A DNA stretch of 64,000 bases from Escherichia phage VEc33, in sequence record NC_048818.1. One strand, given 5' to 3'. The notes beneath the pieces were generated by a model, which did not search any database, was not told where the DNA came from, and saw nothing but the letters and a program-made list of their open reading frames with translations. The translations under genes were made by a program, and so were the position numbers. Numbering within the stretch: position 1 is the stretch's first letter; each line of letters opens with the position of its first letter. This document shows, in pieces, positions 27,867-56,640 of this stretch.

Positions 27867-28199
27867 TTACAGATCGGGGCGTTCATCTTCGAAACAGCCT
27901 GAGCTGATTCCTTCTCCGAATCCTACAAAGCCATCAAATTCATCATTTGAAGTACCACCAGTATAGGTGATGTCCGCAATCATCGCTTCCATTTTCCTGA
28001 TCTCCGAGGTTTTCATACCTGCTTTACTATTCTTATAATATTTGCGAGGGTTCCCACACATCCAGCAAGAACAGATGCAAGGAGTAGTAGTGATAATACC
28101 TAACCGCTTAGGGCTTTCTTCATGTGGAAAGACTGTCCAATACTTCTTGCGGTTGTTCTTCACACGTTGCCGGTGATGGCGTCTTAATGCTCGATCCAC
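27867..28199 (-). CDS. hypothetical Cys-containing protein (110 aa)
   Basis: ORF; CICSCWMC cluster. Confidence 0.45.
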   Translation of the reverse strand: MDRALRRHHRQRVKNNRKKYWTVFPHEESPKRLGIITTTPCICSCWMCGNPRKYYKNSKAGMKTSEIRKMEAMIADITYTGGTSNDEFDGFVGFGEGISSGCFEDERPDL

Positions 28200-28280
28200 A
28201 CATTTCTCCTAAAACTTGGGAGATAAACGGAGTTTGCTCGACTACCTTGCGTAGCTGGGAGAAATCGTATCCAAACCCCA

Positions 28281-28649
28281 TTACATCGCCTGAGTAAATG
28301 TACGACTAATAACGTCGTTCTGTTGTTCACGAGTCAGTGCGTTAAATCGAACAGCGTAGCCAGAGACACGGATGGTCAACTGAGGATATTTTTCAGGATG
28401 TTTCTGTGCATCCAAAAGCTGATCACGGCTTAACACATTGACATTTAGGTGCTGACCACCTTCGATTTGAGGGGCGACTTCCACTTTGACTTCACGGAAG
28501 GCTTCGGGATCGAATTGTGGTGTGATACCTTCTAGATCTTCAACTAGAACTTTCTGTTTAAGTTCACCATTGTCGGAGTATAGCTGAATAATCTGATTTT
28601 CATGAACAAGGTTAATTACGCCAGATTTAAGATTTTGATATGCTTTCAT
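28281..28649 (-). CDS. autonomous glycyl-radical cofactor (GrcA/YfiD-like) (122 aa)
   Basis: C-terminal [17 protein letters not shown] glycyl-radical signature. Confidence 0.65.
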
Positions 28650-28691
28650 TAGATCTCCCCGATGTTAGAAGTTGGCTCAGCTATTTATTCT

Positions 28692-28886
28692 TTATACTTT
28701 TCCATAGTATACGGAAACTGTCTTACCAGTTTGGTTCATGACATATGCTACTTCATCTTCTTTTAAAAAGATGGCTTGGTCTACTCCAACTATAGCCAAT
28801 CTTTTATTTCTAGGATTAAAGCTTACACTTTTGCCTGTATGAATCTGTTCCCCATTCTTGGCTGACATTATTTTAATTGTTAACAT
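28692..28886 (-). CDS. hypothetical small protein (64 aa)
   Basis: ORF. Confidence 0.35.
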   Translation of the reverse strand: MLTIKIMSAKNGEQIHTGKSVSFNPRNKRLAIVGVDQAIFLKEDEVAYVMNQTGKTVSVYYGKV

Positions 28887-28923: not shown

Positions 28924-28999
28924 TGGTAGTTAGTAGTGGATTTGAACCACTGTAGTCGCTCCGTATGAAGGAGGTGCATAACCTCTCTGCCAACTAACT
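28924..28999 (-). tRNA. tRNA-Met/Ile2 (anticodon CAT)
   Basis: Hand-folded: acceptor AGTTAGT/ACTAACT, T-arm GTGG-TTCAAAT-CCAC, anticodon loop TTCATAC, CCA encoded. Confidence 0.55.
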
Positions 29000-29166
29000 A
29001 GTTAATTCTTTATAGGTTAGATCTAGAAGATCTTTCTTACTGATAAGTCCTTCTCTATATTGGTCAATAAACATATCTATTCTAGAGTTCTCTGAGACTT
29101 CTATATCAGAAAGTTCAGCAAATATTTTTGCAAGTTTATCAATATCTTCCATACATAACCTTAATT

Positions 29167-29243
29167 TGGTACTCCGGGAGGGATTTAAACCCCCGATCTC
29201 TCGGTTATCAGCCGAGTGCTTTAGATCGCTAAGCTACCGAAGC
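29167..29243 (-). tRNA. tRNA-Ile (anticodon GAT)
   Basis: Anticodon stem CTCGG/CCGAG, loop CTGATAA; discriminator A; CCA encoded. Confidence 0.6.
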
Positions 29244-29244
29244 A

Positions 29245-29451
29245 TTAACATTTCACAGCAGAACGTTTGCCATTTCTAGGTGCACCGGGAAGTCGGGCAC
29301 ATTCCGCCATTTTTCTTTTTATTTTGCGGATGTTTTCAGGTGTTTGATCTTCTGGTTTTAGGCCAGATACATTACACCATAGTTTACCCTCCCATGCTGT
29401 AATGATCATTACGCCGTTACATATAATCTTTTCTGTAAAAGAAATTCTCAT
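29245..29451 (-). CDS. hypothetical small protein (68 aa)
   Basis: ORF between tRNAs. Confidence 0.35.
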   Translation of the reverse strand: MRISFTEKIICNGVMIITAWEGKLWCNVSGLKPEDQTPENIRKIKRKMAECARLPGAPRNGKRSAVKC

Positions 29452-29744
29452 TATCGTATCTCGTTTAGGTAAGAAGTATAATGGAATTTAGCTTCTCCAG
29501 TCTTATCTATTTCTACCTCAGTTCGTGGTACTTGACGAACCACGCCATGAATCATCTTATAGCGAATGCCTTTAGCTGGTTCATGATCTTTTGGAAATAC
29601 CTGTTTAACCGTTACTACTTTATACTCTTCACGCGGTGTTAACACAACTACTTGATCACCTTCTTTGATTTTCCAAGAAGATGGAAATTCATAGGTATAT
29701 CTTTGGCCACCAGTTTGGAATACTACAGAAAGATAACGCTTCAT
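29451..29744 (-). CDS. hypothetical protein (97 aa)
   Basis: ORF with promoter motif upstream. Confidence 0.45.
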   Translation of the reverse strand: MKRYLSVVFQTGGQRYTYEFPSSWKIKEGDQVVVLTPREEYKVVTVKQVFPKDHEPAKGIRYKMIHGVVRQVPRTEVEIDKTGEAKFHYTSYLNEIR

Positions 29745-29818
29745 TTGGTTTCCCTCTCATTAATTTATATAAATATTATAACAAGAAATAAGAGAGAAGG
29801 CAAATGAATTTTTAAATT

Positions 29819-29893
29819 TGGTGCTCCCACCAGGAATCGAACCCGGTTCAGATGCTTACAAGGCAACTGCATCGCCAGCAATGCTTTAGGAGC
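29819..29893 (-). tRNA. tRNA-Thr (anticodon TGT)
   Basis: T-arm CCGGG-TTCGATT-CCTGG; anticodon loop CTTGTAA; one mismatch in anticodon stem. Confidence 0.5.
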
Positions 29894-30060
29894 GATAATC
29901 CCATTATTTCAATGGGATTTCTTTTTCAAATACAGGGGATTTATCTGACATTACTGTCATTGCCAACTGCTGAAGAAACTCGAAAGTTAGCTTTAAACGT
30001 TCTTCGCCTAATTCAATCTCAACGTATTTCTTTTGTTTGTCAACCTTTAATTTTAGGTTA

Positions 30061-30282
30061 TCAGCCATCTTCGGATTCTCGTTGCTTGGCTACTGCTAGC
30101 CAGTCTGGTAAAAGAAACTTAGTACGAAACTCTTCATACGTTTCTTCTGGGTAAAAGCTAAAACCTCCTTTCTCATCATTCAAGATAACAGAGCCGTCAG
30201 TTTGTTCATAAGCTCGGTATGTTTCCCCAATAATGATAACTCGTTTATCGGTACTTTTATTACGAAACTCAAAAACGTGCAT
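30061..30282 (-). CDS. hypothetical small protein (73 aa)
   Basis: ORF. Confidence 0.4.
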   Translation of the reverse strand: MHVFEFRNKSTDKRVIIIGETYRAYEQTDGSVILNDEKGGFSFYPEETYEEFRTKFLLPDWLAVAKQRESEDG

Positions 30283-30298
30283 AATGTTTCCTTAAAGT

Positions 30299-30374
30299 TG
30301 GAGCGGCTAGAGGGAATCGAACCCTACTCAGCGAGGCTTGGAAGGCCTGCGACACAACCCGTGTGCTTAACCGC
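30299..30374 (-). tRNA. tRNA-Gly (anticodon TCC)
   Basis: Anticodon loop CTTCCAA; discriminator U; T-arm GGG-TTCGATT-CCC. Confidence 0.55.
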
Positions 30375-30382
30375 TTATTATT

Positions 30383-30458
30383 TGGCTGGAGAAGGAGGAA
30401 TCGAACCTACCATTAACGGGGTCAAAGTCCGTTGTGCTAACCGTTACACTACTCTCCA
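30383..30458 (-). tRNA. tRNA-Gln (anticodon TTG)
   Basis: Anticodon loop CTTTGAC; U1-A72; discriminator G. Confidence 0.55.
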
Positions 30459-30464
30459 ATTGTT

Positions 30465-30540
30465 TGGCTGGAGTGCCTGGGATCGAACCAGGAACCTTCG
30501 GAGTCAGAGGCCGACGATCTGCCAATTGATCTACACTCCA
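30465..30540 (-). tRNA. tRNA-Gln (anticodon CTG)
   Basis: Anticodon loop CTCTGAC; T-arm CCTGG-TTCGATC-CCAGG; discriminator G. Confidence 0.55.
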
Positions 30541-30548
30541 ATAATTCT

Positions 30549-30749
30549 TTACTCTACAGGAACCGTAGCTATTGGTTCTGGTTCTTCTAGACGTTTGCCT
30601 TCATGATCTACACGAATAACTCCGCATCCCTCGCAAAGCACAACAGCACCGTAACCTTCTTTAACTTCGGCTTCTGTAATCAAACCAGAAAGATCACCAG
30701 TATCTTTACCCCACATATCAATGGAGCATTGTTTGCAGAAATCAGCCAT
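30549..30749 (-). CDS. Cys-rich zinc-ribbon-like small protein (66 aa)
   Basis: CKQC ... CEGC pairs. Confidence 0.4.
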   Translation of the reverse strand: MADFCKQCSIDMWGKDTGDLSGLITEAEVKEGYGAVVLCEGCGVIRVDHEGKRLEEPEPIATVPVE

Positions 30750-30774
30750 ATTTTATTTCCTATTTAAGTTAATT

Positions 30775-30851
30775 TGGGGTGGCTAGTGGAATTCGAATCC
30801 ACATAGGCCTGATTCACAAGCAGGATCATTAACCAATTATGATATAGCCAC
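30775..30851 (-). tRNA. tRNA-His (anticodon GTG)
   Basis: Anticodon loop TTGTGAA; discriminator C as expected for His; T-arm GTGGA-TTCGAAT-TCCAC. Confidence 0.6.
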
Positions 30852-31405
30852 AATTGAAAACTCGCAGGGTTAGCGAAACCTTCCTCAATTAGCATGTTCT
30901 AGAATACTAATCAAGTTATCTCCTATTGCATGCAGCTCAAGACGAGTACGAATTTTCAATTGTGGCGGCTCTCAGAAACTCTTCTATTCTAGCCTCAGAA
31001 GCTTACCCCCGAACGCATGTCGGGAAAGTCTTTCCAGGAGCATCAAATAGCACCGTTACACTTTGAGCCATTGATGTATCAAGGAATAGAAGGGCTTGAA
31101 CCTTCACGAGATAGACCATTTATCTCAACCGCTTTTAAGGTATATTTCTAGGAGTGGATGTTCCTAGTAAACCTATTCGGCAGTCCCGTCTACCAATTCC
31201 GGCATATTCCAAGAATTTTTTATAAACCAGCAGAAGCCTCATTTAAAGCATCAATAATAGCTTCACGCTGGGTCATTCCATACCCGGTGGAGTCTAGGTG
31301 AGGCAAATAGGCTTCCCATCCATTATCTGTTTCATGAAGGCATGCTTTAAATTTTTTACCGTCCTTCATTGTTACAGTAACTGTTTTGCTCATAAGGATT
31401 CCTTA

Positions 31406-31495
31406 TATTTAATTGGAGGAAGGTAATGGAGTCGAACCATCACCGTATCACTACAGCGGGCTAGTTTTCAAGACTAGTTGCGTACCACTACGCCC
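31406..31495 (-). tRNA. tRNA-Ser (anticodon TGA), class II
   Basis: 90 nt with long variable arm; anticodon stem CTAGT/ACTAG, loop CTTGAAA. Confidence 0.6.
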
Positions 31496-31502
31496 TACCT
31501 TC

Positions 31503-31593
31503 CATTTGTTTGGCGGAAGAGGAGAGATTTGAACTCTCAAGCCGTTTTACCAGTCAGCCACTTTCCAAGCGGTTTTCGTCGCCAATTCGATTT
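31503..31593 (-). tRNA. tRNA-Ser (anticodon GGA), class II, tentative
   Basis: 91 nt; ...CTCTTCC-G-CCA 3' end; anticodon loop TTGGAAA resembles E. coli Ser(GGA). Confidence 0.45.
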
Positions 31594-31705
31594 GCTCTTC
31601 CAATAATAAGATGATGCCTCTATCACACCAGGCAGTTACGCCTCGCTGGGATTCGAACCCATTAAAACAGCTCAACCGAGATAGTAGGTTTAATTTACTC
31701 TGACC

Positions 31706-31782
31706 ATCAAATTTGGTGCGTGACAAGGGATTCGAACCCTCAAAACCCGACTTCTAAGGACGGTATGTATGCCAATTCCATC
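31706..31782 (-). tRNA. tRNA with anticodon TAG (Leu-type anticodon on a short class-I body)
   Basis: Acceptor GCGTGAT/GTCACGC, discriminator A, T-arm GAGGG-TTCGAAT-CCCTT; anticodon loop CTTAGAA; one U-U in the anticodon stem. Confidence 0.45.
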
Positions 31783-31787
31783 AATCA

Positions 31788-31866
31788 CGCATATTTGGTG
31801 GAGAATAACGGAATCGAACCGTTCTGATGTCCTCGGTGCAAGCGAGGTGTCCACTCCATGCAGACC
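31788..31866 (-). tRNA. tRNA-Ala (anticodon TGC)
   Basis: Anticodon stem CCTCG/CGAGG, loop CTTGCAC; G3-U70 wobble in acceptor; discriminator A. Confidence 0.6.
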
Positions 31867-32247
31867 CATTCCCCAAATTCTTTAGTTTACTAAGGCTATT
31901 AGCTCGGCGTAACTACAGCACCTTCGCTTCGAGCGGAAGGAACTGCGTCATCTCGCAAACCCAATACACTACTCAGTTGCCGCTGAATCTAGTGGACTAA
32001 TCTAGAACCTCTCCCAAATCGTAGGGATCGTGCTTTTTGGCAGCCAGTCCTAGGTCGAGCTAATACCTTAGTGAACTAAGATGAGGATTTCTCCTCATCA
32101 ATTTATATAAATATTATAACAAGAAATTAAGCATTAAGCAACTGCGTTTTTGAAATTTCTTGGACTTGGTACTCGGTGATAGAATCTAACTATCGCTACC
32201 GCCGTGTAAAGACGGGGTTCTCTCATTAAACTAACCGAGCAAAAATT

Positions 32248-32325
32248 TGGTGGATTGCCTGGGATTCGAACCCAGAACTGACGGATTAAAGGTCCGCTAC
32301 TCTTATCCAGTTGAGCTAGCAATCC
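32248..32325 (-). tRNA. tRNA-Lys (anticodon TTT)
   Basis: Anticodon loop CCTTTAA; D stem GCTC/GAGT; discriminator A. Confidence 0.6.
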
Positions 32326-32789
32326 AAATTCTCTACTAATAGTTTAAAAGCGTCTAACAGAGGTACTTCAAACCATTCTCCTGATACTTTGTAGTCTTTC
32401 AGAAGATTATGTAATGCTTTTTCAGTTCTTCTCTTGTCCGAGGAGAATCTAAAATGGTATAACTTGTAATCACGATAGGGCGAATATGTTTGATAACTAG
32501 ACAGTCTTTCATTTACGTCTACTGTCATACCTATCTTATAGAGTCCAGGCCACGCTGGGTTACCTATTACATATACAAACCCTTCTGTTATAGGGATTTT
32601 ATGCTCCCTTTTATACTTCAGTAAGTTTAACGCTGCCATTCTATAACAGAACTTAAACTCTGAGGATTTTAGTTTACCTTCTTTACCGGATATTTCGTTA
32701 TACTTCTCCATATACCTACGTATTAAGGAGTCAGTAATAGTAAAGTGCTTTGGAAGATCCAGGGCTTGAAGTACACGGTTAATAAGCAT
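32316..32789 (-). CDS. T5orf172-domain (GIY-YIG-like) endonuclease (157 aa)
   Basis: GFVYVIGNPAWPGLYKIGMT ... YKVSGEWF core; paralog of 34543..35061. Confidence 0.65.
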   Translation of the reverse strand: MLINRVLQALDLPKHFTITDSLIRRYMEKYNEISGKEGKLKSSEFKFCYRMAALNLLKYKREHKIPITEGFVYVIGNPAWPGLYKIGMTVDVNERLSSYQTYSPYRDYKLYHFRFSSDKRRTEKALHNLLKDYKVSGEWFEVPLLDAFKLLVENLDC

Positions 32790-32963
32790 AAACTTCCTTA
32801 ATAGAATGGACTTTTAAGTAAGAATGATTAATCCCAAACTCCGCCATTACTTCTTTTTCATCTTTTCCATAATGTGCAAGTAAGGATCTTGAGGTATTAT
32901 TACCTAAACGTTTGTCGCTTACTACTAATCGAAATACTTTCATTTCGAAATCCTCTATTAAAA

Positions 32964-33041
32964 TGGAAGCGGGTGCAGGAATCGAACCTACCTCTTTCTA
33001 GCTTATGAGACTAGCGATCTCTACCAGAGATCTAACCCGCA
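32964..33041 (-). tRNA. tRNA-Met/Ile2 (anticodon CAT)
   Basis: Anticodon stem CTAGT/GCTAG, loop CTCATAA; D stem GATC/GATC. Confidence 0.5.
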
Positions 33042-33047
33042 ATTGTT

Positions 33048-33125
33048 TGGTCTCCGTGGGAGGATTTGAACCCCCGACCCTATCGCCCCAAACGAAACGC
33101 TCTGGCCAAACTGAGCTACACGGAG
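33048..33125 (-). tRNA. tRNA-Pro (anticodon TGG)
   Basis: Anticodon loop TTTGGGG; D stem GCTC/GAGC; discriminator A. Confidence 0.55.
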
Positions 33126-33498
33126 AATATTATCTTTTTAACCACAGTAAAGATAAGCCTAGCATAGTGAATCCAGTACCTAATCCAATACATTTCTCTA
33201 TAAGAGTAAATGTATCTATGTTGAATGCTGTTATAACAATTGGGATACACCACAATAGCATAAAGACTTCGGCTATCTTATACTTCATTTAGCTTTCCTT
33301 CTCTTCACTTTATAAGATATATTATACAGAGAATTAAGTAAAATAGCAAATGAATTTTTAATAAATTTACTTATTGTGTAGGCCACCTGGAGGCTACCAA
33401 CCCCACGGCTGACAAAGAAGTTTGCGAGACCTCTCTTAAAAGCCAGAATAGACCCGCCGGTCTATCGGAACCTACATAATAAGTAAACTTTATAGTGT

Positions 33499-33619
33499 CA
33501 TTCTAGGCAGGATTCGAACCTGCTATCACTTGTGCGGACTTACGAGAACCATTCTTTCACTCGAATCGAACGAGCTTCTGCCCTAGCCAAGCTGGTTTCC
33601 CCATCAACCACGCTAGAAT
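33499..33619 (-). ncRNA. tRNA-like element with an approximately 45-nt insertion (unresolved)
   Basis: Acceptor-like ATTCTAG/CTAGAAT flanking a perfect T-arm GCAGG-TTCGAAT-CCTGC and D-arm TGGT...ACCA, but about 121 nt long with a second T-arm-like hairpin. Confidence 0.25.
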
Positions 33620-33741
33620 GTTAGATTGTTTTCAGTGCAAGAGTCCGAGTCTTGGACACGACCGCTTCGCAAGTACATAGGCAGCTTATCATGAGTCAGC
33701 ACTTCCGAATTGCTAGCTCCGTGTTCTGCACTGAAATTTTA

Positions 33742-34089
33742 TTAGTTTAACCGTAAAGTATTATCTACTTCACCATTAATTGTTCGGCATTCCTCTGGGA
33801 ATGCCGGGGTGGCTTTGTATTCCCACCACTCAGCACCATCATATTCCCCACGTTCTAGCCAAGTTCCATCGGCAAACCATACATTACCATAAAGTAATTG
33901 TCCACCGTATCCAGAATCATATTCAAAGTCTAGGTTATTAAGAAAATCCTCAATATCTTCTTCTGTATAACCTAAAGGTAATACCCAAACTTTTTTATCC
34001 CCATAATACCCAAATTCTATTTTAATACACTTAACTTCAGAATTAGTATTTTTTAAGGCAAGTAACAACTCTTCTTTGGCATTACGCAT
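33742..34089 (-). CDS. hypothetical protein (115 aa)
   Basis: ORF; Trp/Tyr/Gly-rich. Confidence 0.45.
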   Translation of the reverse strand: MRNAKEELLLALKNTNSEVKCIKIEFGYYGDKKVWVLPLGYTEEDIEDFLNNLDFEYDSGYGGQLLYGNVWFADGTWLERGEYDGAEWWEYKATPAFPEECRTINGEVDNTLRLN

Positions 34090-34114
34090 AGTATATTCTC
34101 ATACTGAATTAATT

Positions 34115-34191
34115 TGGCGCGACCGATGGGATTTGAACCCACATTCTCTCCCGTGACAGGGGAGTACCATTACCAAGCCAGCCCCGGTCGC
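34115..34191 (-). tRNA. tRNA-Asp (anticodon GTC)
   Basis: Anticodon stem CTCCC/GGGAG, loop CTGTCAC; discriminator G. Confidence 0.6.
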
Positions 34192-34200
34192 ATAATTTAT

Positions 34201-34386
34201 TTACTCAGCTTTGAGTTTTTCAATAGCTGCATTAAGTTCTTTAAGAAACTCTTTTCGTACATTAAGACGATTGAGACTTACTAGTATATCATGTTTAAGT
34301 TCTTCGATATATTTCTTCTCAACTTCAATATTGTTGATAGTGCTATCACGATGAACTTCTAGCTGCGCAATCACATTCTTGGACAT
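34201..34386 (-). CDS. hypothetical small protein (61 aa)
   Basis: ORF. Confidence 0.35.
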   Translation of the reverse strand: MSKNVIAQLEVHRDSTINNIEVEKKYIEELKHDILVSLNRLNVRKEFLKELNAAIEKLKAE

Positions 34387-34488
34387 ACTTATTTCCTCAG
34401 TTATTAATGAAAATGGTATCTGTGGCTGAATTCGATGTCAGCAATGATAGCTGGTTGGCTACCGGTTTACTTAACTCTACACAGAATT

Positions 34489-34566
34489 TGGCGGTTCCTG
34501 CTGGATTCGAACCAGCAACCCTCAACTTAACAAGATGCCGCTCTAACCAATTAGAGCTAAGGAACC
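34489..34566 (-). tRNA. tRNA-Asn (anticodon GTT), tentative
   Basis: Acceptor GGTTCCT/AGGAACC, T-arm GCTGG-TTCGAAT-CCAGC, loop TTGTTAA; anticodon stem poorly paired. Confidence 0.4.
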
Positions 34567-35061
34567 ATATAAGTCAGAACTAGAGTTAATACGTTCTAGA
34601 TATTTACTAAGATCTCTAGAATTTATACTAAACCACTCATGCTCTTTTAAATCTTTGAAATACCGGTGAATTAGTTTTTCACCTTTTCGTTTGTCAAACC
34701 AAAAAGACCAGTGCTCTAACTTATAATCCCTATAAGGGGAATAAGTCTGATATTGAGCTAATCTCTCTTTTGGATTTTGACTCATACCTATTTTATACTG
34801 ATTTTTCCATGCAGGATTACTAATACAGTATACAAAACCTTCAGAAATAGGAAGTTTATTTTCCTGCTTAAACTTTATAAAGGAAAGTGCAGCAAGTTTT
34901 CTCGAATACATAGTATTCGTATTCTTTTTGGTATTACCATTGGTTCCTGAAAGATTTATATATTCTTCCATAAATCTTTGGATTAGTTCTGCGGTTATAT
35001 AGAAGGGCTCATTAGTAACAACGCCTTTCTTTACCAAACTATCAAAAACTTTTGTATGCAC
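34543..35061 (-). CDS. T5orf172-domain (GIY-YIG-like) endonuclease (172 aa)
   Basis: GFVYCISNPAWKNQYKIGMS ... EHEWF core; 172 aa, the namesake size of the T5orf172 domain; 3' end overlaps the tRNA. Confidence 0.65.
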   Translation of the reverse strand: MHTKVFDSLVKKGVVTNEPFYITAELIQRFMEEYINLSGTNGNTKKNTNTMYSRKLAALSFIKFKQENKLPISEGFVYCISNPAWKNQYKIGMSQNPKERLAQYQTYSPYRDYKLEHWSFWFDKRKGEKLIHRYFKDLKEHEWFSINSRDLSKYLERINSSSDLYGSLALIG

Positions 35062-35082
35062 TACTTCTTTCCTTTAGCAAAT

Positions 35083-35158
35083 TGGACGACCGCATGAGAT
35101 TTGAACTCACATAAAAAGGATTTGCAATCCTTCGCCTAAGCCATTCAGCCAACGGTCG
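35083..35158 (-). tRNA. tRNA-Cys (anticodon GCA)
   Basis: Anticodon stem AAGGA/TCCTT, loop TTGCAAA; discriminator U. Confidence 0.6.
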
Positions 35159-35235
35159 GTTTATCTTGTTCTGTCATGTTGCTTCTCCAGTTCAATTTAT
35201 GTAATTATTATACAGAACTTTTGGAAACTAAGCAA

Positions 35236-35514
35236 CTACATTTTTAAGAATTTGATGCCTTTCTTTTTCTTCTTATATTTCCACGTTAATGGATTCTGCC
35301 GATTGTGAACGCTTGAGATCTTCGTCTCGTCAAAGTTCTTCAATATCATGTAATCACAAGATAATTGTTCTAATGGAATGTGATCACCGTCAAAAGCATA
35401 TACATAAGGTTGTTGACTAGCACGATAATGATAGACTTTGTTAATTCTACGTTTTAGCGACTTATCAGCGCAGTAAATAAAGAAGTTTTCAGGATGCATC
35501 AGCATCTCCTTCAA
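35236..35514 (-). CDS. hypothetical protein (92 aa)
   Basis: ORF. Confidence 0.4.
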   Translation of the reverse strand: MKEMLMHPENFFIYCADKSLKRRINKVYHYRASQQPYVYAFDGDHIPLEQLSCDYMILKNFDETKISSVHNRQNPLTWKYKKKKKGIKFLKM

Positions 35515-35516
35515 TT

Positions 35517-35591
35517 TGGTGCACCCTGTTCGTATCGAACGAACCTCTCAAGCTCTTCAGGCAAGCGCTAATCCATCTCAGCTAAAGGTGC
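35517..35591 (-). tRNA. tRNA-Phe (anticodon GAA), tentative
   Basis: T-arm GTTCG-TTCGATA-CGAAC; anticodon loop CTGAAGA; weak anticodon stem. Confidence 0.45.
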
Positions 35592-35597
35592 AAATTT

Positions 35598-35674
35598 TGG
35601 CAAACCTACTAGGACTCGAACCTAGACCGTACGGTTTTAGAGACCGACATGCTGTCCAGTAACACTCTAGGAAT
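35598..35674 (-). tRNA. Trp-like tRNA with anticodon CTA (reads UAG), candidate amber suppressor
   Basis: T-arm CTAGG-TTCGAGT-CCTAG and discriminator G as in E. coli tRNA-Trp; anticodon arm TCGGT-CTCTAAA-ACCGT differs from the Trp loop CTCCAAA by one base; acceptor stem has two U-U mismatches. Confidence 0.4.
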
Positions 35675-35682
35675 GCAGAAAT

Positions 35683-35759
35683 TGGCGTCCTGTGCGGGGA
35701 TCGAACCCGCAAATCCTACCTTGAAAGGGTAGTGACTTTACCAGTTTGTCTAACAGGAC
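35683..35759 (-). tRNA. tRNA-Glu (anticodon TTC)
   Basis: Acceptor GTCCTGT/ACAGGAC perfect; anticodon stem CTACC/GGTAG, loop CTTTCAA. Confidence 0.65.
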
Positions 35760-35766
35760 TTAAATT

Positions 35767-35857
35767 TGGTGTTGGATGATGGAGTCGAACCACCCGAGAC
35801 CCTTCCGAGTCGGCAGATTTACAGTCTGCTTCGCTACCTCTACGATACTAATCCAAC
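35767..35857 (-). tRNA. tRNA-Tyr (anticodon GTA), class II
   Basis: 91 nt; acceptor GTTGGAT/ATCCAAC; anticodon stem GCAGA/TCTGC, loop CTGTAAA. Confidence 0.6.
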
Positions 35858-35985
35858 ATATTTAAAAGTATTCAAATACTAGTTTAAACACTTTTAAATA
35901 TGTTTCCGAATTAGATAACTATTATATCAAGTTTTAAGGCACTGAGCAAGTCAAATTTTAAAGAACTTGCTCAGTGCTGTATTAG

Positions 35986-36261
35986 TTAGTCGAACTTAGG
36001 AGTGACAGTTAAGGAGAACGGAAGTTCGAAAACTTCTTCGCCCTCATTACTAACGGTAACTACACGACCTTTAAGTTCAGACATTAAAATATCAATATCA
36101 GCTTTTGCATCTGGAGCCATGCCAGCTTCAATACATTTAGCTTTAACTTCCGGTAAAAGCTCTACGTTATAGAGATAGAGCCACTCAATCTCACCTTCCC
36201 AGTCTTCCCAGGATTTGCAGATTGCACTTTCAATACCAGTTGCTACAACACGATTTTGCAT
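35986..36261 (-). CDS. hypothetical acidic protein (91 aa)
   Basis: ORF with promoter motif upstream. Confidence 0.45.
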   Translation of the reverse strand: MQNRVVATGIESAICKSWEDWEGEIEWLYLYNVELLPEVKAKCIEAGMAPDAKADIDILMSELKGRVVTVSNEGEEVFELPFSLTVTPKFD

Positions 36262-36351
36262 TAATTAACTCCTCCATCAATTTATATAATTATTATATCA
36301 GAAATTTAAGGCAAAAGGCAAGTACATTTTTAAAAATTCTGTTTGGAGGAG

Positions 36352-36558
36352 CTAAACTCCAGATTCTTCAGCTAAGTCTAGGCTAATAAGAGTTATAGCC
36401 ATAATTGCTGCACCGTGTTCTTTTTCTCCGGTGTTTTTAGCAGAGTCTATAATAGTCTTAATCTGTTCGTAATAGCCCTTTACTTCTTGTTCAATACCTG
36501 CCTCGGCTATCATGCCTTTAGTCATGATTCGTTGCATAGTAATTTCACGGTTAGCCAT
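36352..36558 (-). CDS. hypothetical small protein (68 aa)
   Basis: ORF. Confidence 0.35.
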   Translation of the reverse strand: MANREITMQRIMTKGMIAEAGIEQEVKGYYEQIKTIIDSAKNTGEKEHGAAIMAITLISLDLAEESGV

Positions 36559-36733
36559 GATGTTTCTCCAATTTCATCTTTAATAGTCTACAAATAAAAT
36601 CAATGTCTTCATCCGTGCCTAGATCTCTATCTTCAAGAGTTGCCTTGAAGTTTTTAGTCAATTCCATGAGGATAACTTCTCTAGAACGACGTGTTGGCGG
36701 AGGTGGATGTCTATACATCTTATTTCCTTAATT

Positions 36734-36810
36734 TGGTAGGGGTGGTGGGATTCGAACCCACAAAACCTGAATTTTAAGTCCAGTACCTATGCCAATTCGA
36801 TTACACCCCC
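36734..36810 (-). tRNA. tRNA with anticodon TAA (Leu-type anticodon on a class-I body)
   Basis: T-arm GTGGG-TTCGAAT-CCCAC; anticodon stem CTGGA/TTCAG, loop CTTAAAA; discriminator A; 5-nt variable loop. Confidence 0.5.
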
Positions 36811-36817
36811 GTGTAGT

Positions 36818-37006
36818 TTAGTCAATTACTTTTGAGGCTTCAAGGTAGTCGATATAGTGTATGTTTTCTACCGTAATCATATAATCTGCCACTTTATCCA
36901 TAGCTTGGGCTTCAGAGGTAGCTCTGGCTAACCTATATCCTTTTTTATATTCATCCTGGTATTCTCTATCTTGGATAAACACAACATAAACTATATATAG
37001 ATCCAT
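36818..37006 (-). CDS. hypothetical small protein (62 aa)
   Basis: ORF. Confidence 0.35.
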   Translation of the reverse strand: MDLYIVYVVFIQDREYQDEYKKGYRLARATSEAQAMDKVADYMITVENIHYIDYLEASKVID

Positions 37007-37025
37007 TTGTTACCTCTATTTAATT

Positions 37026-37103
37026 TGGTGGCTCCCCGAGGATTCGAACCTACGTACCTTCCGGTTATGAGCCGGGTGCTCATACCATATGAGCTTGAGA
37101 ACC
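37026..37103 (-). tRNA. tRNA-Met/fMet (anticodon CAT)
   Basis: Anticodon loop CTCATAA with a G-C-rich stem; third CAT tRNA in the cluster. Confidence 0.45.
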
Positions 37104-37109
37104 AAAATC

Positions 37110-37198
37110 TGGCGGAAGAAGTGGGAATCGAATCCACAAGGCTATATTTCAAACCGACAGATTAGCAATCTGCTGCAATACCGTTATGCTATTCTTCC
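37110..37198 (-). tRNA. tRNA-Ser (anticodon GCT), class II
   Basis: 89 nt; acceptor GGAAGAA/TTCTTCC; anticodon stem GCAGA/TCTGT, loop TTGCTAA; discriminator G. Confidence 0.55.
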
Positions 37199-37219
37199 GA
37201 ATTTATAAGATATATTATA

Positions 37220-37738
37220 TTAGAAATTTAGCTTCATAGCAAGAAAATTTTTCAAGTTTTCGGTAGACATCTCATCTACGTCTACAGGAGAAACAAAGCC
37301 GTTTAATTTTCTAGCAAATTTTTCACCCGCAGGATCATTATCCCCGACAGCTACCAATTTAAAAGGTAATAATTTCAGTTGCTTTAATAACGCTTTTCCT
37401 GGAGAAGAACCCAACATTGCTAGGGCTGGATAACCAGCGTTATGTAACGCAACTGCCTTAAATACAGATTCAGCGATCAATACTACTTTTTCATCTCCAT
37501 TGAGAGTTTCTAGTCCCCATACACACTGGGTAGTAGAATAAGTAAAGTATTTAGCTTCAAAAGGGCACTTACCATGACCTTTTGGAGCAGAAGGATTATA
37601 AGTTTGGTAGCCCCTCAACATCCCAGAGAAATCATATAACGGGACTGTTAGCCATCCTTCCGGACTTAACCAGCAATGATATTTTTCTGTATCAAATCCT
37701 CTAGATAAGAGGTGCTGTGTTAGCTCATCAACATTCAT
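37220..37738 (-). CDS. Toprim-domain-like protein (172 aa)
   Basis: VVLIAESVFKAV ... LVAVGDNDPAGEKFA resembles the Toprim E...DxD signature. Confidence 0.45.
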   Translation of the reverse strand: MNVDELTQHLLSRGFDTEKYHCWLSPEGWLTVPLYDFSGMLRGYQTYNPSAPKGHGKCPFEAKYFTYSTTQCVWGLETLNGDEKVVLIAESVFKAVALHNAGYPALAMLGSSPGKALLKQLKLLPFKLVAVGDNDPAGEKFARKLNGFVSPVDVDEMSTENLKNFLAMKLNF

Positions 37739-37915
37739 ACCTGGTTCCTCTCTCTCAAATTTATAGATATATTATACAGAGAATTTAGCATTCAAGCAAT
37801 CAAATTTTTTAACTTTTTAGAGGAAAATCATAGGGCACTTAAGGGTAGCAGATAAGTGGTGAGGACCAAAATTTGTGACCCCACTAAAAATCCGGGGGCA
37901 ATTTTTAAAGACCCC

Positions 37916-37944
37916 TTGACATTTTCGCTGGGGTAGTGTAAAGT
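37916..37944 (+). promoter_or_regulatory. sigma70-type promoter (TTGACA-N17-TAAAGT) for the rightward three-gene module
   Basis: Consensus -35 TTGACA at 37916-37921. Confidence 0.5.
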
Positions 37945-38006
37945 ATATGTTATGGATGAGTGATCAAAGAGACACACATTTTCTATATACTAGGAGGTGT
38001 CAAAAA

Positions 38007-38978
38007 ATGACAGAAGAAGTAGCTAAGAGTCCTGAAACCGTCGCTAGCGTAGCAGCAGAACTGCATCGTCACGAGGAATCAGATAAGAAAAAGTGGGAGA
38101 AGGTCAGAGCCTACGAAGAAAAACATCGTGTTCACGATGAAGAAGATGATGATGAACATTGTCATAAATATGGAAAACATAAAATGCAAGAACCAGTAAA
38201 CGTATTCACTAGTGGCTTCCCTGGCCTACTGGGTGGTTACCCAGCAAACGCAAGTGCTTTCGGTGGTGAAGGTATGGGACTATTCGGAGCTATCCTAATC
38301 GGTGCTCTATTAACAGGCGGATTTGGTGGTTTTGGTGGTTTTGGCCGTGGTGCTGGCGTTGCCGCTGAAGGGACTGCTGTGGACGCGATCCTTTCTAACC
38401 AAGATACTGCAAGTATTCTAGCTGCAATCAATACTACTCGTACAGAAGCTAACCAGGGCACTGGGGCTGTTCTAAGCGCAGTAAACGGTGTGGGAGCTGC
38501 TCAAGCTGCTAGCACTCAGCAAGTTCTGACTACTATCTACGGTACAGGTGCTAATCTGTCAAACCAGATCTGTGCTGAAACTCGTAACGTTATTCAGGGT
38601 CAGTTCGATCTTTCTCGTCAGATGGATCAATCTTTCGCTGCTAACCAGATCGCACGTGCTCAAGATAAATTTGACTCTGCTCAGATTGCTTTCCAGCAGT
38701 CTATTCAGACCAATAACCAGTTTGCCGCTGTTCAGGCTCAGATGTGTGCTAACCAGAATGCTATCGAACGTCAGCTTGCCGAATGTTGCTGTGAGCTTCA
38801 GACTGCAATCGCTGGTGTAACTACTGCACGTATCCAGGACGAACTGAATGAATGCCGTCTGCGTGAAGCAATCGCTGCAGGTAGCGGTGCTAACGGTCAG
38901 GTAATTAATCAAATCGCTGTAAGTCTTGGTGCTATCACTCAGACTCTGGCTGGTCTGCAGGCTAAACTGCCGGCTTAA
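38007..38978 (+). CDS. Gly-zipper membrane protein with acidic His-rich N-terminus and Ala/Gln-rich C-terminal domain (about 323 aa from the RBS-supported ATG)
   Basis: AGGAGG RBS before ATG 38007; hydrophobic GLFGAILIGALLTGGFGGFGGFG segment; CCCE and other Cys near the C-terminus; no recognisable enzymatic motif. Confidence 0.55.
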   Translation: MTEEVAKSPETVASVAAELHRHEESDKKKWEKVRAYEEKHRVHDEEDDDEHCHKYGKHKMQEPVNVFTSGFPGLLGGYPANASAFGGEGMGLFGAILIGALLTGGFGGFGGFGRGAGVAAEGTAVDAILSNQDTASILAAINTTRTEANQGTGAVLSAVNGVGAAQAASTQQVLTTIYGTGANLSNQICAETRNVIQGQFDLSRQMDQSFAANQIARAQDKFDSAQIAFQQSIQTNNQFAAVQAQMCANQNAIERQLAECCCELQTAIAGVTTARIQDELNECRLREAIAAGSGANGQVINQIAVSLGAITQTLAGLQAKLPA

Positions 38979-38999
38979 TATTAAGGGGAGGAGCCCATT

Positions 39000-39416
39000 A
39001 TGAGTAAATATGGTTTTGTAAATAACGGACTTAATCAAAGTATGGGCTCCCAGCAGCCCGTTCCGGGACTGGATAACCCTTACCTACAACAGTTGCAACA
39101 GCGTTTAGCAGAAGCGCAACAGATGCAGCAACAACTCCAGCAAAACCCTGGAAGTGTGAGTCCTATGCAAATGATGCAGCAAATGAGCGGGCAGTCGCAA
39201 ATGCCTCAACAAATGCAGCAACAGGTGCCTCAGCAGCAAGTTCAGCAGCAAACCCAACAACCGCAGGTTTCTGCGGAAGGACAGGCAGTACTAGCCCTTT
39301 TCGAAGACTTCGCAAAGACAGAGGATGGGAAGCAGCTTGTATCACTTATGGGTAAGTTTAATAGCTTCTGCCAAAGCCAAGTTGCAAAAGCTCAAAATGG
39401 TGGTAATAACTCCTAA
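39000..39416 (+). CDS. Gln-rich low-complexity protein (138 aa)
   Basis: GGAGGAG RBS; poly-Q/M stretches. Confidence 0.5.
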   Translation: MSKYGFVNNGLNQSMGSQQPVPGLDNPYLQQLQQRLAEAQQMQQQLQQNPGSVSPMQMMQQMSGQSQMPQQMQQQVPQQQVQQQTQQPQVSAEGQAVLALFEDFAKTEDGKQLVSLMGKFNSFCQSQVAKAQNGGNNS

Positions 39417-39425
39417 GGAGGAATT

Positions 39426-39620
39426 ATGTGTTGCAGAAAATCTGTTTCGTGCTGCCCAATGCCTGTAGCACGTTGTTGCTCTCCAGCAATGTTTACGCAA
39501 ATACCGGCGTTCAATCCGTTTGCCTTTAAGCCTACTCTTATCCTGCCCCCTAGAGTAGATTTTCAGTCAAGATTGGCCTCCCGTATGGGTGGTTGCTGTA
39601 ACAAGAGTATATGGTTCTAA
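39426..39620 (+). CDS. Cys-rich small protein with four CC doublets (64 aa)
   Basis: AGGAGG RBS; MCC..SCC..RCC..GCC pattern. Confidence 0.45.
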   Translation: MCCRKSVSCCPMPVARCCSPAMFTQIPAFNPFAFKPTLILPPRVDFQSRLASRMGGCCNKSIWF

Positions 39621-39633
39621 AGAACCAAACAAT

Positions 39634-39668
39634 AAAGCCCCTAGTCGAAAGACTTAGGGGCTTTTTCT
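39634..39668 (+). terminator. Rho-independent terminator, one of two back-to-back hairpins
   Basis: AAAGCCCCTAGTCGAAAGACTTAGGGGCTTTTTC. Confidence 0.6.
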
Positions 39669-39684
39669 TTTGCCTTAAATACAG

Positions 39685-39721
39685 AAAAGCCCGCGCTCTC
39701 GGAGGAAACGCGGGCTTGGTT
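39685..39721 (-). terminator. Rho-independent terminator for the convergent leftward gene
   Basis: AAAAGCCCGCGCTCTCGGAGGAAACGCGGGCTTGGTT hairpin. Confidence 0.5.
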
Positions 39722-39740
39722 CGAAGATTACGTGTAACTA

Positions 39741-40688: not shown

Positions 40689-40722
40689 ATATTTCCTTTG
40701 TTTTAGTTACAGTTAATAAAAT

Positions 40723-40797
40723 TGGCCGAGGTGACAGGATTCGAACCTGCATAAAGGAATTTAGAAGACTCCTGCCTATCCCTTAGACTACACCCCG
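40723..40797 (-). tRNA. tRNA-Arg (anticodon TCT)
   Basis: T-arm GCAGG-TTCGAAT-CCTGT; anticodon stem GGAGT/ATTCC, loop CTTCTAA. Confidence 0.55.
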
Positions 40798-56477: not shown

Positions 56478-56640
56478 TCCAGAAAACATGCTTATTGAGC
56501 AATGGAACTTTGGTTATAATGCTGGTGTAGCTACTTGTATTGCTAGATTGGATACGCTTATTAAGCAAGAAAAGGTACGCCCTGAGGAAGCAATTTTACT
56601 CCGAAATATTATCGAAGGATTTAAGCAAGGAATCGTATAG
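56446..56640 (+). CDS. hypothetical protein (about 64 aa from the internal Met)
   Basis: GGAGGAG RBS before ATG 56446. Confidence 0.4.
   Translation: MDFLNQNLKSNPENMLIEQWNFGYNAGVATCIARLDTLIKQEKVRPEEAILLRNIIEGFKQGIV

What the first reader, a model, noticed from the sequence alone, without database searches (positions are those of the whole stretch)
28281..28649. Stand-alone glycyl-radical protein (GrcA/YfiD-like) alongside an NrdD that has its own glycyl-radical motif
The 122-aa ORF ends in [17 protein letters not shown], the signature of the spare-part glycyl-radical cofactor. NrdD at 54000-55874 carries its own RRVCGY motif. No NrdG-like radical-SAM activase (CxxxCxxC) is visible in this window, so activation presumably depends on the host or a gene elsewhere. 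The phage copy could repair oxygen-cleaved host PFL or phage NrdD.
Basis: partly seen in the sequence, partly recalled or inferred. Interest (0 to 1): 0.5.

Follow-up and report, generated by a model that had tools for sequence, protein, structure and literature searches.

The report
Phage T5-type GrcA spare-part protein
This small gene of a T5-like phage is a copy of the bacterial "spare part" protein GrcA, which most likely lets the infected cell repair its oxygen-damaged pyruvate formate-lyase; the same kind of phage gene was proven to do this in phage T4 in 2001, so the finding is correct but ordinary.

Summary
A 122-aa ORF lies at 28281..28649, on the minus strand. Its C-terminal 62 residues are a PFL-type glycyl-radical domain (Pfam Gly_radical 3.7e-18; E. 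coli GrcA structure 6OWR 1.4e-30). The radical glycine is Gly97 in RVSGYAV. The window is the left 64 kb of a T5-like phage (Tequintavirus), and the gene is the ortholog of T5.056. An identical protein is encoded by Salmonella phage Th1 and Escherichia phage BB1, and 1583 phage records carry a homolog. One of them is T4 vs.6 (Y06I), which Wagner et al. (2001) showed is activated by host PflA and restores oxygen-cleaved PFL. NrdD at 54000..55874 is real. No NrdG or PflA homolog is found in the window or in the whole genome of the closest relative checked, and nrdD-only phages are already described. The C-terminus matches PflB, TdcE and GrcA (48-51 of 62) but not NrdD, so repairing NrdD is unlikely. 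The one unusual feature is the N-terminal ~45 residues, which cannot be shown to resemble those of the validated GrcA proteins. Verdict: already known, low interest. Side observation: a tRNA-Trp whose anticodon has changed to CUA (amber-suppressor type), unique among 277 related records.

The parts
28281..28649 (-). grcA-like gene (ortholog of T5.056): 122-aa autonomous glycyl-radical cofactor; stop codon at 28281-28283
   Evidence: ORF list. Pfam PF01228 3.7e-18. NCBIfam TIGR04365 GrcA 3.5e-35. phrog_1209 matches the full length at 8e-48. An identical protein is encoded in phages Th1 and BB1. The T5.056 annotation is.
28284..28469 (-). C-terminal glycyl-radical domain, residues 61-122, equivalent to PflB 698-759 and GrcA 66-127
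   Evidence: phmmer alignments to 6OWR, 1CM5 and 1H16. Identity is 48-51 of 62 to E. coli GrcA, PflB and TdcE. 41 columns are invariant across 22 phage and bacterial homologs. All 14 codon differences from T5 in this half are synonymous. This part of the AF2 model matches the YfiD NMR structure and PFL.
28359..28361 (-). Codon GGC for Gly97, the predicted radical-bearing glycine (aligned with GrcA Gly102 and PflB Gly734)
   Evidence: The sequence was read directly (28359-28361 'gcc', reverse complement GGC). The position comes, and the column is invariant.
28470..28649 (-). N-terminal half, residues 1-60. It is lineage-specific: only residues ~43-60 ([15 protein letters not shown]) resemble GrcA or Y06I
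   Evidence: BLASTP of the N-terminal halves finds no hit to T4 Y06I and only a 10-residue hit to E. coli GrcA. hhalign aligns residues 43-61 locally with probability 52%. AF2 predicts four beta-strands with pLDDT 55-76. 6 of the 18 codons that differ from T5 in this half are non-synonymous.
28655..28660 (-). Shine-Dalgarno sequence GGGGAG, 5 nt upstream of the ATG
   Evidence: The upstream sequence was read directly.
29775..29803 (-). Candidate sigma-70 promoter (TTGCCT-17-TATAAT with an extended TG), the counterpart of T5 early promoter P11. It may drive the unit made of tRNA-Ile, tRNA-Met, small ORFs and grcA
   Evidence: Consensus scan, 10 of 12 matches. Promoter P11 is annotated at the equivalent place in T5, between tRNA-Thr and T5.058. 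The assignment is an inference and the promoter was not shown to be used.
54000..55874 (+). nrdD (class III anaerobic ribonucleotide reductase, 624 aa, with its own glycyl-radical loop TRRVCGYLG). This is context, not part of the GrcA system

Best explanation
The gene encodes a phage version of the autonomous glycyl-radical cofactor GrcA (YfiD), made early in infection by a T5-like phage. When traces of oxygen reach an anaerobically growing host, the glycyl radical of pyruvate formate-lyase (PflB Gly734) reacts with O2. The chain is cut at that glycine and the C-terminal 26 residues are lost. The phage protein carries a near-copy of the PflB C-terminal domain (beta-strand, glycyl loop RVSGYAV, C-terminal helix). 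It docks into the cleaved enzyme in place of the lost piece. The host's own activase PflA, a radical-SAM enzyme, then abstracts a hydrogen from Gly97, and the new radical is passed to PflB Cys419, so that pyruvate is again split into acetyl-CoA and formate. This keeps fermentative ATP and acetyl-CoA supply running in the infected cell. T5 degrades host DNA and shuts off host transcription (established knowledge), so the host could no longer induce its own grcA and the phage brings a copy. What is shown here: sequence, fold, conservation and synteny; the absence of any phage activase in the window and in a close relative's whole genome; and the closeness of the C-terminus to PflB and TdcE rather than to NrdD. 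What is inferred by homology to T4 Y06I and E. coli YfiD: activation by host PflA, binding to cleaved PflB (or its paralog TdcE), and the benefit to the phage.
For: Domain and family matches: Pfam Gly_radical 3.7e-18. The top NCBIfam hit is GrcA TIGR04365 at 3.5e-35. The top PDB hits are E. coli GrcA 6OWR at 1.4e-30 and PflB 698-759 at 5e-27.
Identity over the C-terminal 62 aa: 49/62 to PflB, 51/62 to TdcE, 48/62 to GrcA and 49/62 to T4 vs.6.
Conservation: Gly97 and 40 other columns are invariant in 22 diverse phage and bacterial homologs. Against T5, 26 codons differ synonymously and 6 non-synonymously, with none of the non-synonymous changes in the C-terminal half.
Fold: the predicted C-terminal half matches the YfiD NMR structure (E = 1e-5, 80% identity) and PFL.
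Distribution: homologs occur in 1583 phage records, of which 434 are at least 80% identical. The gene sits at the same place next to the tRNA cluster in T5, T5_ev212 and Th1.
Experimental precedent: T4 Y06I and E. coli YfiD receive the radical from PFL-AE and restore oxygen-cleaved PFL (Wagner et al. 2001, as described in PMC8683613; see also PMC12338860).
No phage activase.
Against: No experiment exists for the T5-type protein. No paper in the searched library pairs T5-like phages with glycyl-radical or PFL terms.
The N-terminal ~45 residues cannot be shown to be homologous to those of YfiD or Y06I. In YfiD that half is needed for measurable binding to cleaved PFL and for efficient radical installation (PMC8683613).
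The score on the curated GrcA model is 121 bits, below the 170-bit cut-off. The validated T4 protein also falls below it at 153 bits.
The benefit to the phage is untested. The in-frame deletion in the nrdD of the reference (laboratory) T5 sequence hints that the anaerobic functions are dispensable in aerobic culture.
Confidence: 0.8

Rival explanations
1. The protein is a spare part for the phage's own anaerobic ribonucleotide reductase NrdD. It would replace the NrdD C-terminal piece lost after oxygen cleavage, with activation by host NrdG.
For: NrdD is encoded in the same genome without an NrdG. Like all glycyl-radical enzymes, it is cut by oxygen at its glycine (established knowledge). PMC8683613 speculates that spare parts may exist for other glycyl-radical enzymes.
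Against: The C-terminal domain is 79-82% identical to PflB and TdcE, but aligns to the NrdD C-terminus only around R-V-x-G-Y. NrdD has a CxxC...CxxC zinc ribbon just before its glycyl loop and the loop sequence RVCGYLGNPGA, and neither is present here. NCBIfam and PDB hits rank GrcA and PFL first and give no NrdD hit. T4 has the same pair of genes, and its GrcA homolog works on PFL.
Confidence: 0.03
2. The protein targets the PflB paralog TdcE (2-ketobutyrate/pyruvate formate-lyase), or both enzymes, rather than PflB specifically.
For: Over the C-terminal 62 residues TdcE is marginally the closest match at 51/62, against 49/62 for PflB. Ala104, Arg107, Ser115 and Ala121 match TdcE. Some GenBank records name the gene 2-ketobutyrate formate-lyase.
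Against: A difference of two residues is within noise. PflB is the abundant enzyme in fermenting cells, whereas TdcE is conditionally expressed (established knowledge). This is a variant of the best explanation rather than a real alternative.
Confidence: 0.1
3. The protein is a modulator or decoy. It would soak up host PflA, or occupy PflB, and so change host fermentation (for example by lowering formate production or redirecting pyruvate) instead of repairing PFL.
For: The N-terminal half is lineage-specific and is predicted to be beta-structured rather than disordered. In YfiD the N-terminal half governs binding and activation, so the partner or the outcome could differ.
Against: Every residue of the glycyl loop and the flanking elements needed for radical chemistry is invariant, and this half is under strict purifying selection. 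A mere binder would not need that. The validated T4 homolog restores activity.
Confidence: 0.05
4. The gene is a decaying fragment of a captured host pflB, tdcE or grcA gene with no function.
For: Many records annotate it as 'pyruvate formate-lyase', although it covers only the last 8% of that enzyme.
Against: The gene is intact in 434 records at 80% identity or more, always about 122 aa, with a good ribosome-binding site. Synonymous changes greatly outnumber non-synonymous ones. Homologs are kept in T4-like, T5-like, jumbo and Vibrio phages.
Confidence: 0.02

Closest known systems
Bacteriophage T4 Y06I (gene vs.6), autonomous glycyl-radical cofactor (Wagner et al. 2001, BBRC 285:456)
   Same: It is a stand-alone phage protein of ~120 aa that begins MKAYQ and has the same C-terminal PFL-type glycyl-radical domain (49/62 identical, 52.7% overall). 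It is encoded in a phage that also carries nrdD. It is the experimentally validated precedent for a phage spare part for host PFL activated by host PflA.
   Different: The T4 C-terminal half is almost identical to E. coli GrcA (60/62), whereas the T5-type half is about equally distant from GrcA, PflB and TdcE. The N-terminal halves show no pairwise similarity. T4 also encodes its own NrdG, while the T5-like relative checked (Th1) does not.
E. coli GrcA / YfiD (PDB 6OWR; NCBIfam TIGR04365; InterPro IPR011140)
   Same: Size, architecture, radical glycine, glycyl loop and C-terminal helix all agree. It is the best sequence and fold match.
   Different: Residues 1-45 are not recognisably similar. 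The T5-type N-terminus is predicted to form beta-strands, whereas the YfiD N-terminus is disordered in NMR. The score of 121 bits is below the 170-bit equivalog cut-off. The gene is expressed from a phage early region instead of the host's stress- and anaerobiosis-regulated promoter.
C-terminal domain of E. coli PflB (residues 698-759) and of TdcE
   Same: Identity is 49/62 and 51/62, with no gaps in the alignment, including the [10 protein letters not shown] motif and the C-terminal TRTFTQ(A/S)(M/L).
   Different: The phage protein lacks the whole 10-stranded barrel and the catalytic Cys418/Cys419, so it cannot be a formate-lyase by itself. GenBank names such as 'pyruvate formate-lyase' or '2-ketobutyrate formate-lyase' are misnomers.

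Membership tests
Autonomous glycyl-radical cofactor (GrcA/YfiD/Y06I functional class; PHROG 1209) | Small stand-alone protein (~115-130 aa) without the catalytic barrel of a glycyl-radical enzyme | tested here: met
   The ORF is 122 aa and bounded by stops. The only Pfam domain is Gly_radical, at residues 62-103. phrog_1209 matches the full length, 1-122, at 8e-48.
Autonomous glycyl-radical cofactor (GrcA/YfiD/Y06I functional class; PHROG 1209) | C-terminal ~62 residues that duplicate the PFL C-terminus, with the radical glycine in RVSGYAV | tested here: met
   Gly97 aligns with GrcA Gly102 and PflB Gly734. Identity is 48-51 of 62, and the loop is invariant in 22 homologs.
Autonomous glycyl-radical cofactor (GrcA/YfiD/Y06I functional class; PHROG 1209) | N-terminal ~60-residue region related to that of YfiD, which mediates binding to cleaved PFL and efficient activation | tested here: inconclusive
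   Only residues ~43-60 align (BLASTP E = 0.004 to GrcA; hhalign local probability 52%). Residues 1-42 give no significant match, although a global alignment is collinear and the K-A/G-x-Q start is shared.
Autonomous glycyl-radical cofactor (GrcA/YfiD/Y06I functional class; PHROG 1209) | Fold of the C-terminal half like the YfiD NMR structure and the PFL glycyl-radical domain | tested here: met
   The AF2 model has mean pLDDT 67.6 overall and block means of 73-87 over residues 71-120. Foldseek finds 6OWR at E = 1e-5 and 2PFL at 7e-4.
Autonomous glycyl-radical cofactor (GrcA/YfiD/Y06I functional class; PHROG 1209) | Glycyl radical installed by the PFL activase PflA | not testable with these tools
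   This is inferred from Y06I and YfiD (PMC8683613). No phage activase was found.
Autonomous glycyl-radical cofactor (GrcA/YfiD/Y06I functional class; PHROG 1209) | Restores activity to oxygen-cleaved PFL | not testable with these tools
   This has been shown only for E. coli YfiD and T4 Y06I.
NCBIfam TIGR04365 'spare_glycyl' equivalog (bacterial GrcA as defined by NCBI's classifier) | Whole-protein score at or above the curated cut-off of 170 bits | tested here: not met
   The score is 121 bits, with only residues 50-122 matched. As a control, E. coli GrcA scores 234 bits, and the experimentally validated T4 Y06I scores 153 bits and also fails. The cut-off therefore separates bacterial from phage versions, not function.
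Pyruvate formate-lyase / 2-ketobutyrate formate-lyase (the name many GenBank records give this gene) | A ~760-aa enzyme with a 10-stranded barrel and catalytic Cys418/Cys419 | tested here: not met
   Only profile positions 683-744 of the 744-position TIGR01255 model are matched, at 85.9 bits against a cut-off of 994. The protein is 122 aa.
   The alignment with the window's own NrdD C-terminus needs many gaps, and the protein has no cysteines in that region.
Glycyl-radical activase (NrdG / PflA radical-SAM) encoded by the phage | A CxxxCxxC cluster in a protein of ~150-250 aa that is homologous to NrdG or PflA | tested here: not met
   tblastn with E. coli NrdG, T4-like NrdG and E. coli PflA against the window and the whole Th1 genome gives a best E-value of 0.5. 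The motif occurs only in non-homologous short ORFs, and the one tested against Pfam (27867..28199) has no radical-SAM hit.

The most novel reading that the evidence does not exclude
The T5-type proteins could be a functionally distinct branch of the spare-part family. Their first ~45 residues are unrelated in sequence to those of the two validated members and are predicted to form a small beta-sheet instead of a disordered tail. In YfiD that half decides which damaged enzyme is recognised and how well the radical is installed. The T5-type protein could therefore recognise a different state or partner, such as TdcE, intact inactive PflB, or another host glycyl-radical enzyme. It could also be tuned to work in a cell whose DNA has been destroyed and whose only activases, PflA and NrdG, are those made before infection.
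Probability: 0.1. Interest if true: 0.4.

Novelty: already known. Interest (0 to 1): 0.12.

Why it matters
It matters little as a discovery. The phage-encoded PFL spare part has been known since 2001 for T4, and the T5 ortholog (T5.056) has been in GenBank since the T5 genome was sequenced. Several records already name it GrcA. The useful points are practical. First, many T5-like phage records mislabel the gene: 'pyruvate formate-lyase', '2-ketobutyrate formate-lyase', 'acetyltransferase-related', 'ribonucleotide reductase subunit' and 'hypothetical' all occur. Second, the T5-like genome checked carries two oxygen-sensitive glycyl-radical proteins (GrcA and NrdD) but no activase. Their anaerobic functions therefore seem to depend entirely on host PflA and NrdG that are present before host shut-off. 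That is a testable dependency, relevant to phage performance in the gut or in food matrices, where these Salmonella and E. coli phages are used.

Tried and rejected
1. Looked for a phage activase. I scanned all six-frame ORFs of the window and of the whole Th1 genome for CxxxCxxC, and ran tblastn with E. coli NrdG, T4-like NrdG and E. coli PflA. Nothing was found.
2. Checked the 110-aa ORF just downstream (27867..28199), which carries CICSCWMC, as a possible mini-activase. It has no Pfam hit, belongs to phrog_4499 of unknown function, and is too short for a radical-SAM enzyme. Rejected.
3. Considered GrcA as a spare part for NrdD. Rejected on the alignment.
4. Tried to establish homology of the N-terminal half with YfiD and Y06I by BLASTP and by profile-profile comparison. 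Only residues 43-61 align, so the result is inconclusive.
5. Searched the literature for any study of the T5-type protein, or for T5-like papers that mention nrdG. Found none in the library. [quoted passage not shown]
6. Counted phage records: 2923 with NrdD and 2273 with NrdG. The gap is compatible with T5-like phages lacking nrdG, but the comparison was not resolved per genome.
7. For the CUA-anticodon tRNA, screened for in-frame TAG codons in window genes relative to Th1. The internal stops seen appear to lie in antisense or 5'-untranslated parts of stop-to-stop ORFs, as judged against the Th1 gene table. I saw no convincing amber-interrupted gene.

Full report
WHAT IS THERE. The ORF list shows a 122-aa ORF at 28281..28649 on the minus strand, starting with ATG. 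A GGGGAG Shine-Dalgarno sequence lies 5 nt upstream of the start. The product is [122 protein letters not shown]. The coordinates are right; the strand was not stated.

IDENTITY OF THE PROTEIN. Pfam finds a single domain, Gly_radical, at residues 62-103 (E = 3.7e-18, 66 bits against a cut-off of 22). In NCBIfam the best model is TIGR04365, autonomous glycyl radical cofactor GrcA (3.5e-35), followed by GrcA3, GrcA2 and then the C-terminal end of formate C-acetyltransferase. Among solved structures the best match is E. coli GrcA/YfiD (6OWR, 1.4e-30), followed by PflB residues 698-759 (5e-27).

An ungapped comparison of the last 62 residues gives 49/62 identities to PflB, 51/62 to TdcE, 48/62 to E. 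coli GrcA and 49/62 to T4 vs.6. From that alignment the radical glycine is Gly97, codon GGC at 28359-28361. It aligns with GrcA Gly102 and PflB Gly734. In an alignment of 22 diverse phage and bacterial homologs, 41 columns of the C-terminal half are invariant, including the whole stretch [16 protein letters not shown].

An AlphaFold2 model built on 26 homologs is of moderate quality (mean pLDDT 67.6). Its C-terminal half nevertheless retrieves the YfiD NMR structure (E = 1e-5) and PFL (7e-4).

WHERE THE WINDOW COMES FROM. The region is 93-96% identical to many T5-like phages (Tequintavirus, Demerecviridae) of E. coli and Salmonella. The window is collinear with Salmonella phage Th1 from Th1 position 27 onwards, so it is the left 64 kb of such a genome. 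The gene is the ortholog of T5.056 (116/122 identical). In the T5 reference it is annotated 'putative acetyltransferase-related protein, match to IPR001150', and it sits just downstream of tRNA-Met at the edge of the tRNA cluster.

An identical protein is encoded in phages Th1 and BB1. tblastn finds homologs in 1583 phage records. Of these, 434 are at least 80% identical (the T5-like group). The rest include T4-like phages, jumbo phages of about 350 kb, and Vibrio and Aeromonas phages. Names in GenBank are inconsistent: 'pyruvate formate-lyase', '2-ketobutyrate formate-lyase', 'acetyltransferase-related', 'ribonucleotide reductase subunit', 'hypothetical' and, correctly, 'autonomous glycyl radical cofactor GrcA'.

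IS THE GENE FUNCTIONAL? Compared with T5, 26 codons differ synonymously and 6 non-synonymously. All 14 changed codons in the C-terminal half are synonymous. Compared with Th1, all 8 changed codons are synonymous. With its ribosome-binding site and its conservation in hundreds of genomes, this rules out a decaying fragment.

A sigma-70-type promoter with an extended -10 lies at 29803..29775 on the same strand. It corresponds in position to the annotated T5 early promoter P11. I infer that the gene is transcribed with the adjacent tRNAs and small ORFs as part of the early region, but this was not shown.

HOW IT MOST LIKELY WORKS. The closest experimentally studied relative in a phage is T4 Y06I (gene vs.6), which is 52.7% identical overall. 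According to PMC8683613, Wagner et al. (2001) showed that both E. coli YfiD and T4 Y06I restore function to oxygen-cleaved PFL. The PFL activase installs the glycyl radical on the small protein, which forms a complex with the cleaved enzyme. The radical on the small protein then abstracts hydrogen from PflB Cys419 (PMC12338860).

The T5-type protein keeps every element of that C-terminal module, so the same mechanism is the best-supported explanation. The activase must be the host's PflA, because none is encoded by the phage (see below). My own inference concerns why the phage carries the gene. It is established that T5 destroys host DNA early in infection, so the host's own inducible grcA could not be switched on afterwards. 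A phage copy would keep fermentative acetyl-CoA and ATP production going when oxygen fluctuates.

THE NrdD / NrdG PART OF THE FINDING. NrdD is real: 54000..55874 (+), 624 aa, Pfam NRDD 2e-172, NCBIfam NF006732 844 bits against a cut-off of 657, with the glycyl loop TRRVCGYLG. Like T4 NrdD, it lacks the N-terminal ~85 residues present in E. coli NrdD.

No activase is present in the window. CxxxCxxC occurs only in a 66-codon ORF and in the 110-aa ORF at 27867..28199. tblastn with E. coli NrdG, a T4-like NrdG and E. coli PflA finds nothing (best E = 0.5) in the window or in the complete 110-kb Th1 genome. The motif scan of the whole Th1 genome is equally negative, and Th1 has no such annotation.

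In the phage collection, 2923 records have an NrdD match and 2273 an NrdG match. Dwivedi et al. 2013 already noted that many phages carry nrdD with nrdAB but no nrdG. They also described T5, SPC35 and EPS7 as having phoH between their class III and class I genes, exactly as in this window (PMC3653736).

The window NrdD C-terminal ~70 residues are closer to E. coli NrdD (44/70) than T4's are (33/70). This is compatible with use of host NrdG but does not prove it.

WHY NOT A SPARE PART FOR NrdD. The phage's own NrdD C-terminus aligns with the small protein only around R-V-x-G-Y, and the alignment needs many gaps. NrdD has a four-cysteine zinc ribbon immediately before the loop and a different loop continuation (CGYLGNPGA against SGYAVRFNA). 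No NrdD model or structure appears among the hits of the small protein.

WHAT IS DIFFERENT FROM THE VALIDATED MEMBERS. The N-terminal half is lineage-specific. BLASTP of residues 1-60 finds nothing in the T4 Y06I N-terminal half and only a 10-residue match ([10 protein letters not shown] / YREVPVEVKP) in E. coli GrcA. By contrast, the T4 and E. coli N-terminal halves do align with each other. A profile-profile comparison of the T5-type N-termini with all others aligns residues 43-61 locally (probability 52%). A forced global alignment is collinear but weak, at 28%.

The TIGR04365 model matches only residues 50-122 and scores 121 bits, below its 170-bit cut-off. As a control, E. coli GrcA scores 234 bits, while the validated T4 protein scores 153 and also fails. 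The cut-off is therefore not a test of function.

AlphaFold predicts four beta-strands in residues 2-36 at pLDDT 55-76. The YfiD N-terminal half, in contrast, is disordered in solution, yet it is needed for detectable binding to cleaved PFL and for fourfold better radical installation (PMC8683613). This is the only part of the protein where a real functional difference could hide.

A second small difference concerns the C-terminal half. In T4 it is nearly identical to E. coli GrcA (60/62). In the T5 type it is equidistant from GrcA, PflB and TdcE, with several TdcE-like residues in the last helix.

COMPARISON WITH WHAT IS KNOWN, AND NOVELTY. The protein works like, and by its defining C-terminal features belongs to, the autonomous glycyl-radical cofactor class (GrcA/YfiD/Y06I). 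It is not a formate-lyase. The phage occurrence of this class, its mechanism and its dependence on host PflA were published in 2001. The T5 gene itself has long been in the databases, an identical sequence is deposited, and several records already call it GrcA. I found no paper in the library that discusses the T5-type protein specifically, so biochemical confirmation for this lineage is missing. As a finding it is already known. Interest is low (0.12).

SIDE OBSERVATIONS. (a) The tRNA at 35598..35674 (-) has the anticodon CTA. It differs from the tRNA-Trp (CCA) at the same position in Th1 by that single base. None of the 277 phage records with this tRNA is identical to the window's version; the best are 76/77. 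This looks like a tRNA-Trp turned amber suppressor, or else a sequencing error. A crude screen found no amber-interrupted gene in the window.

(b) The reference T5 NrdD (574 aa) lacks 50 residues that are present in the window, T4-like and E. coli NrdD, including the conserved SLGYIG block. The deletion is in frame.

(c) Two overlapping ORFs lie downstream of grcA: 28120..28281 and 27867..28199, in different frames with an 80-nt overlap. Each matches its own PHROG family.

Noticed in passing
window 35598..35674 (-): A tRNA with anticodon CTA (reads UAG; ARAGORN calls it 'tRNA-Pyl') sits between tRNA-Phe and tRNA-Glu. It is identical to the tRNA-Trp (CCA) at the same place in phage Th1 except for the middle anticodon base. 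None of the 277 phage records carrying this tRNA is identical to it; the best are 76/77. It is either a natural or selected amber-suppressor tRNA-Trp, or a sequencing error. A crude screen found no convincing in-frame TAG in window genes.
   Followed up: partly
L003 9962..11686 (T5 reference nrdD, T5.099) versus window 54000..55874: The reference T5 NrdD is 574 aa. It has an in-frame 50-aa deletion relative to the window NrdD (window residues ~403-452, DHFYNRASVSLGYIGCHEMLQ...RDRV). The deletion removes a block that is conserved in E. coli and T4-like NrdD, so the T5 reference sequence may encode an inactive anaerobic reductase.
   Followed up: partly
window 27867..28199 (-) and 28120..28281 (-): Two ORFs immediately downstream of grcA overlap by 80 nt in different frames, and each matches its own PHROG family (phrog_4499/6828 and phrog_31464). 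Different GenBank records annotate one or the other. The longer ORF (the T5.055 homolog) has a cysteine cluster, TPCICSCWMCGNPRK, which is the only CxxxCxxC near grcA, but it has no Pfam hit and is too short for a radical-SAM enzyme.
   Followed up: partly
window 28924..40797 (-): A cluster of 23 tRNA genes, all on the minus strand, is interspersed with small ORFs, as in T5. grcA lies at its downstream (low-coordinate) edge, separated from tRNA-Met by one 64-aa ORF (28692..28886, phrog_3909). That ORF is absent at this position in the T5 reference.
   Followed up: no
window 56640..57476 (+) and 57632..58138 (+): Downstream of nrdD lie a Sir2-family ORF (so annotated in T5 and Th1) and a HAD_SAK_2 domain protein (Pfam 1.8e-20, 'HAD domain in Swiss Army Knife RNA repair proteins'). 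The T5 reference labels the second one Sir2 as well, which looks like an annotation error.
   Followed up: no
L009 3001..3363 (T4-type vs.6) versus E. coli grcA (L010 4067..4450): The C-terminal 62 residues of T4 vs.6/Y06I are 60/62 identical to E. coli GrcA, while its N-terminal half is only about 34% identical over a 38-residue local alignment. This suggests a recent exchange of the C-terminal half with the host gene. The T5-type gene shows no such host-like half.
   Followed up: no
GenBank records of T5-like phages (hits H1-H36): The product names given to this one gene are inconsistent: pyruvate formate-lyase, 2-ketobutyrate formate-lyase, acetyltransferase-related protein, ribonucleotide reductase subunit, hypothetical protein and GrcA. 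Th1 also annotates a start 48 nt further upstream (417 nt), which is impossible in the window because a stop codon intervenes.
   Followed up: yes
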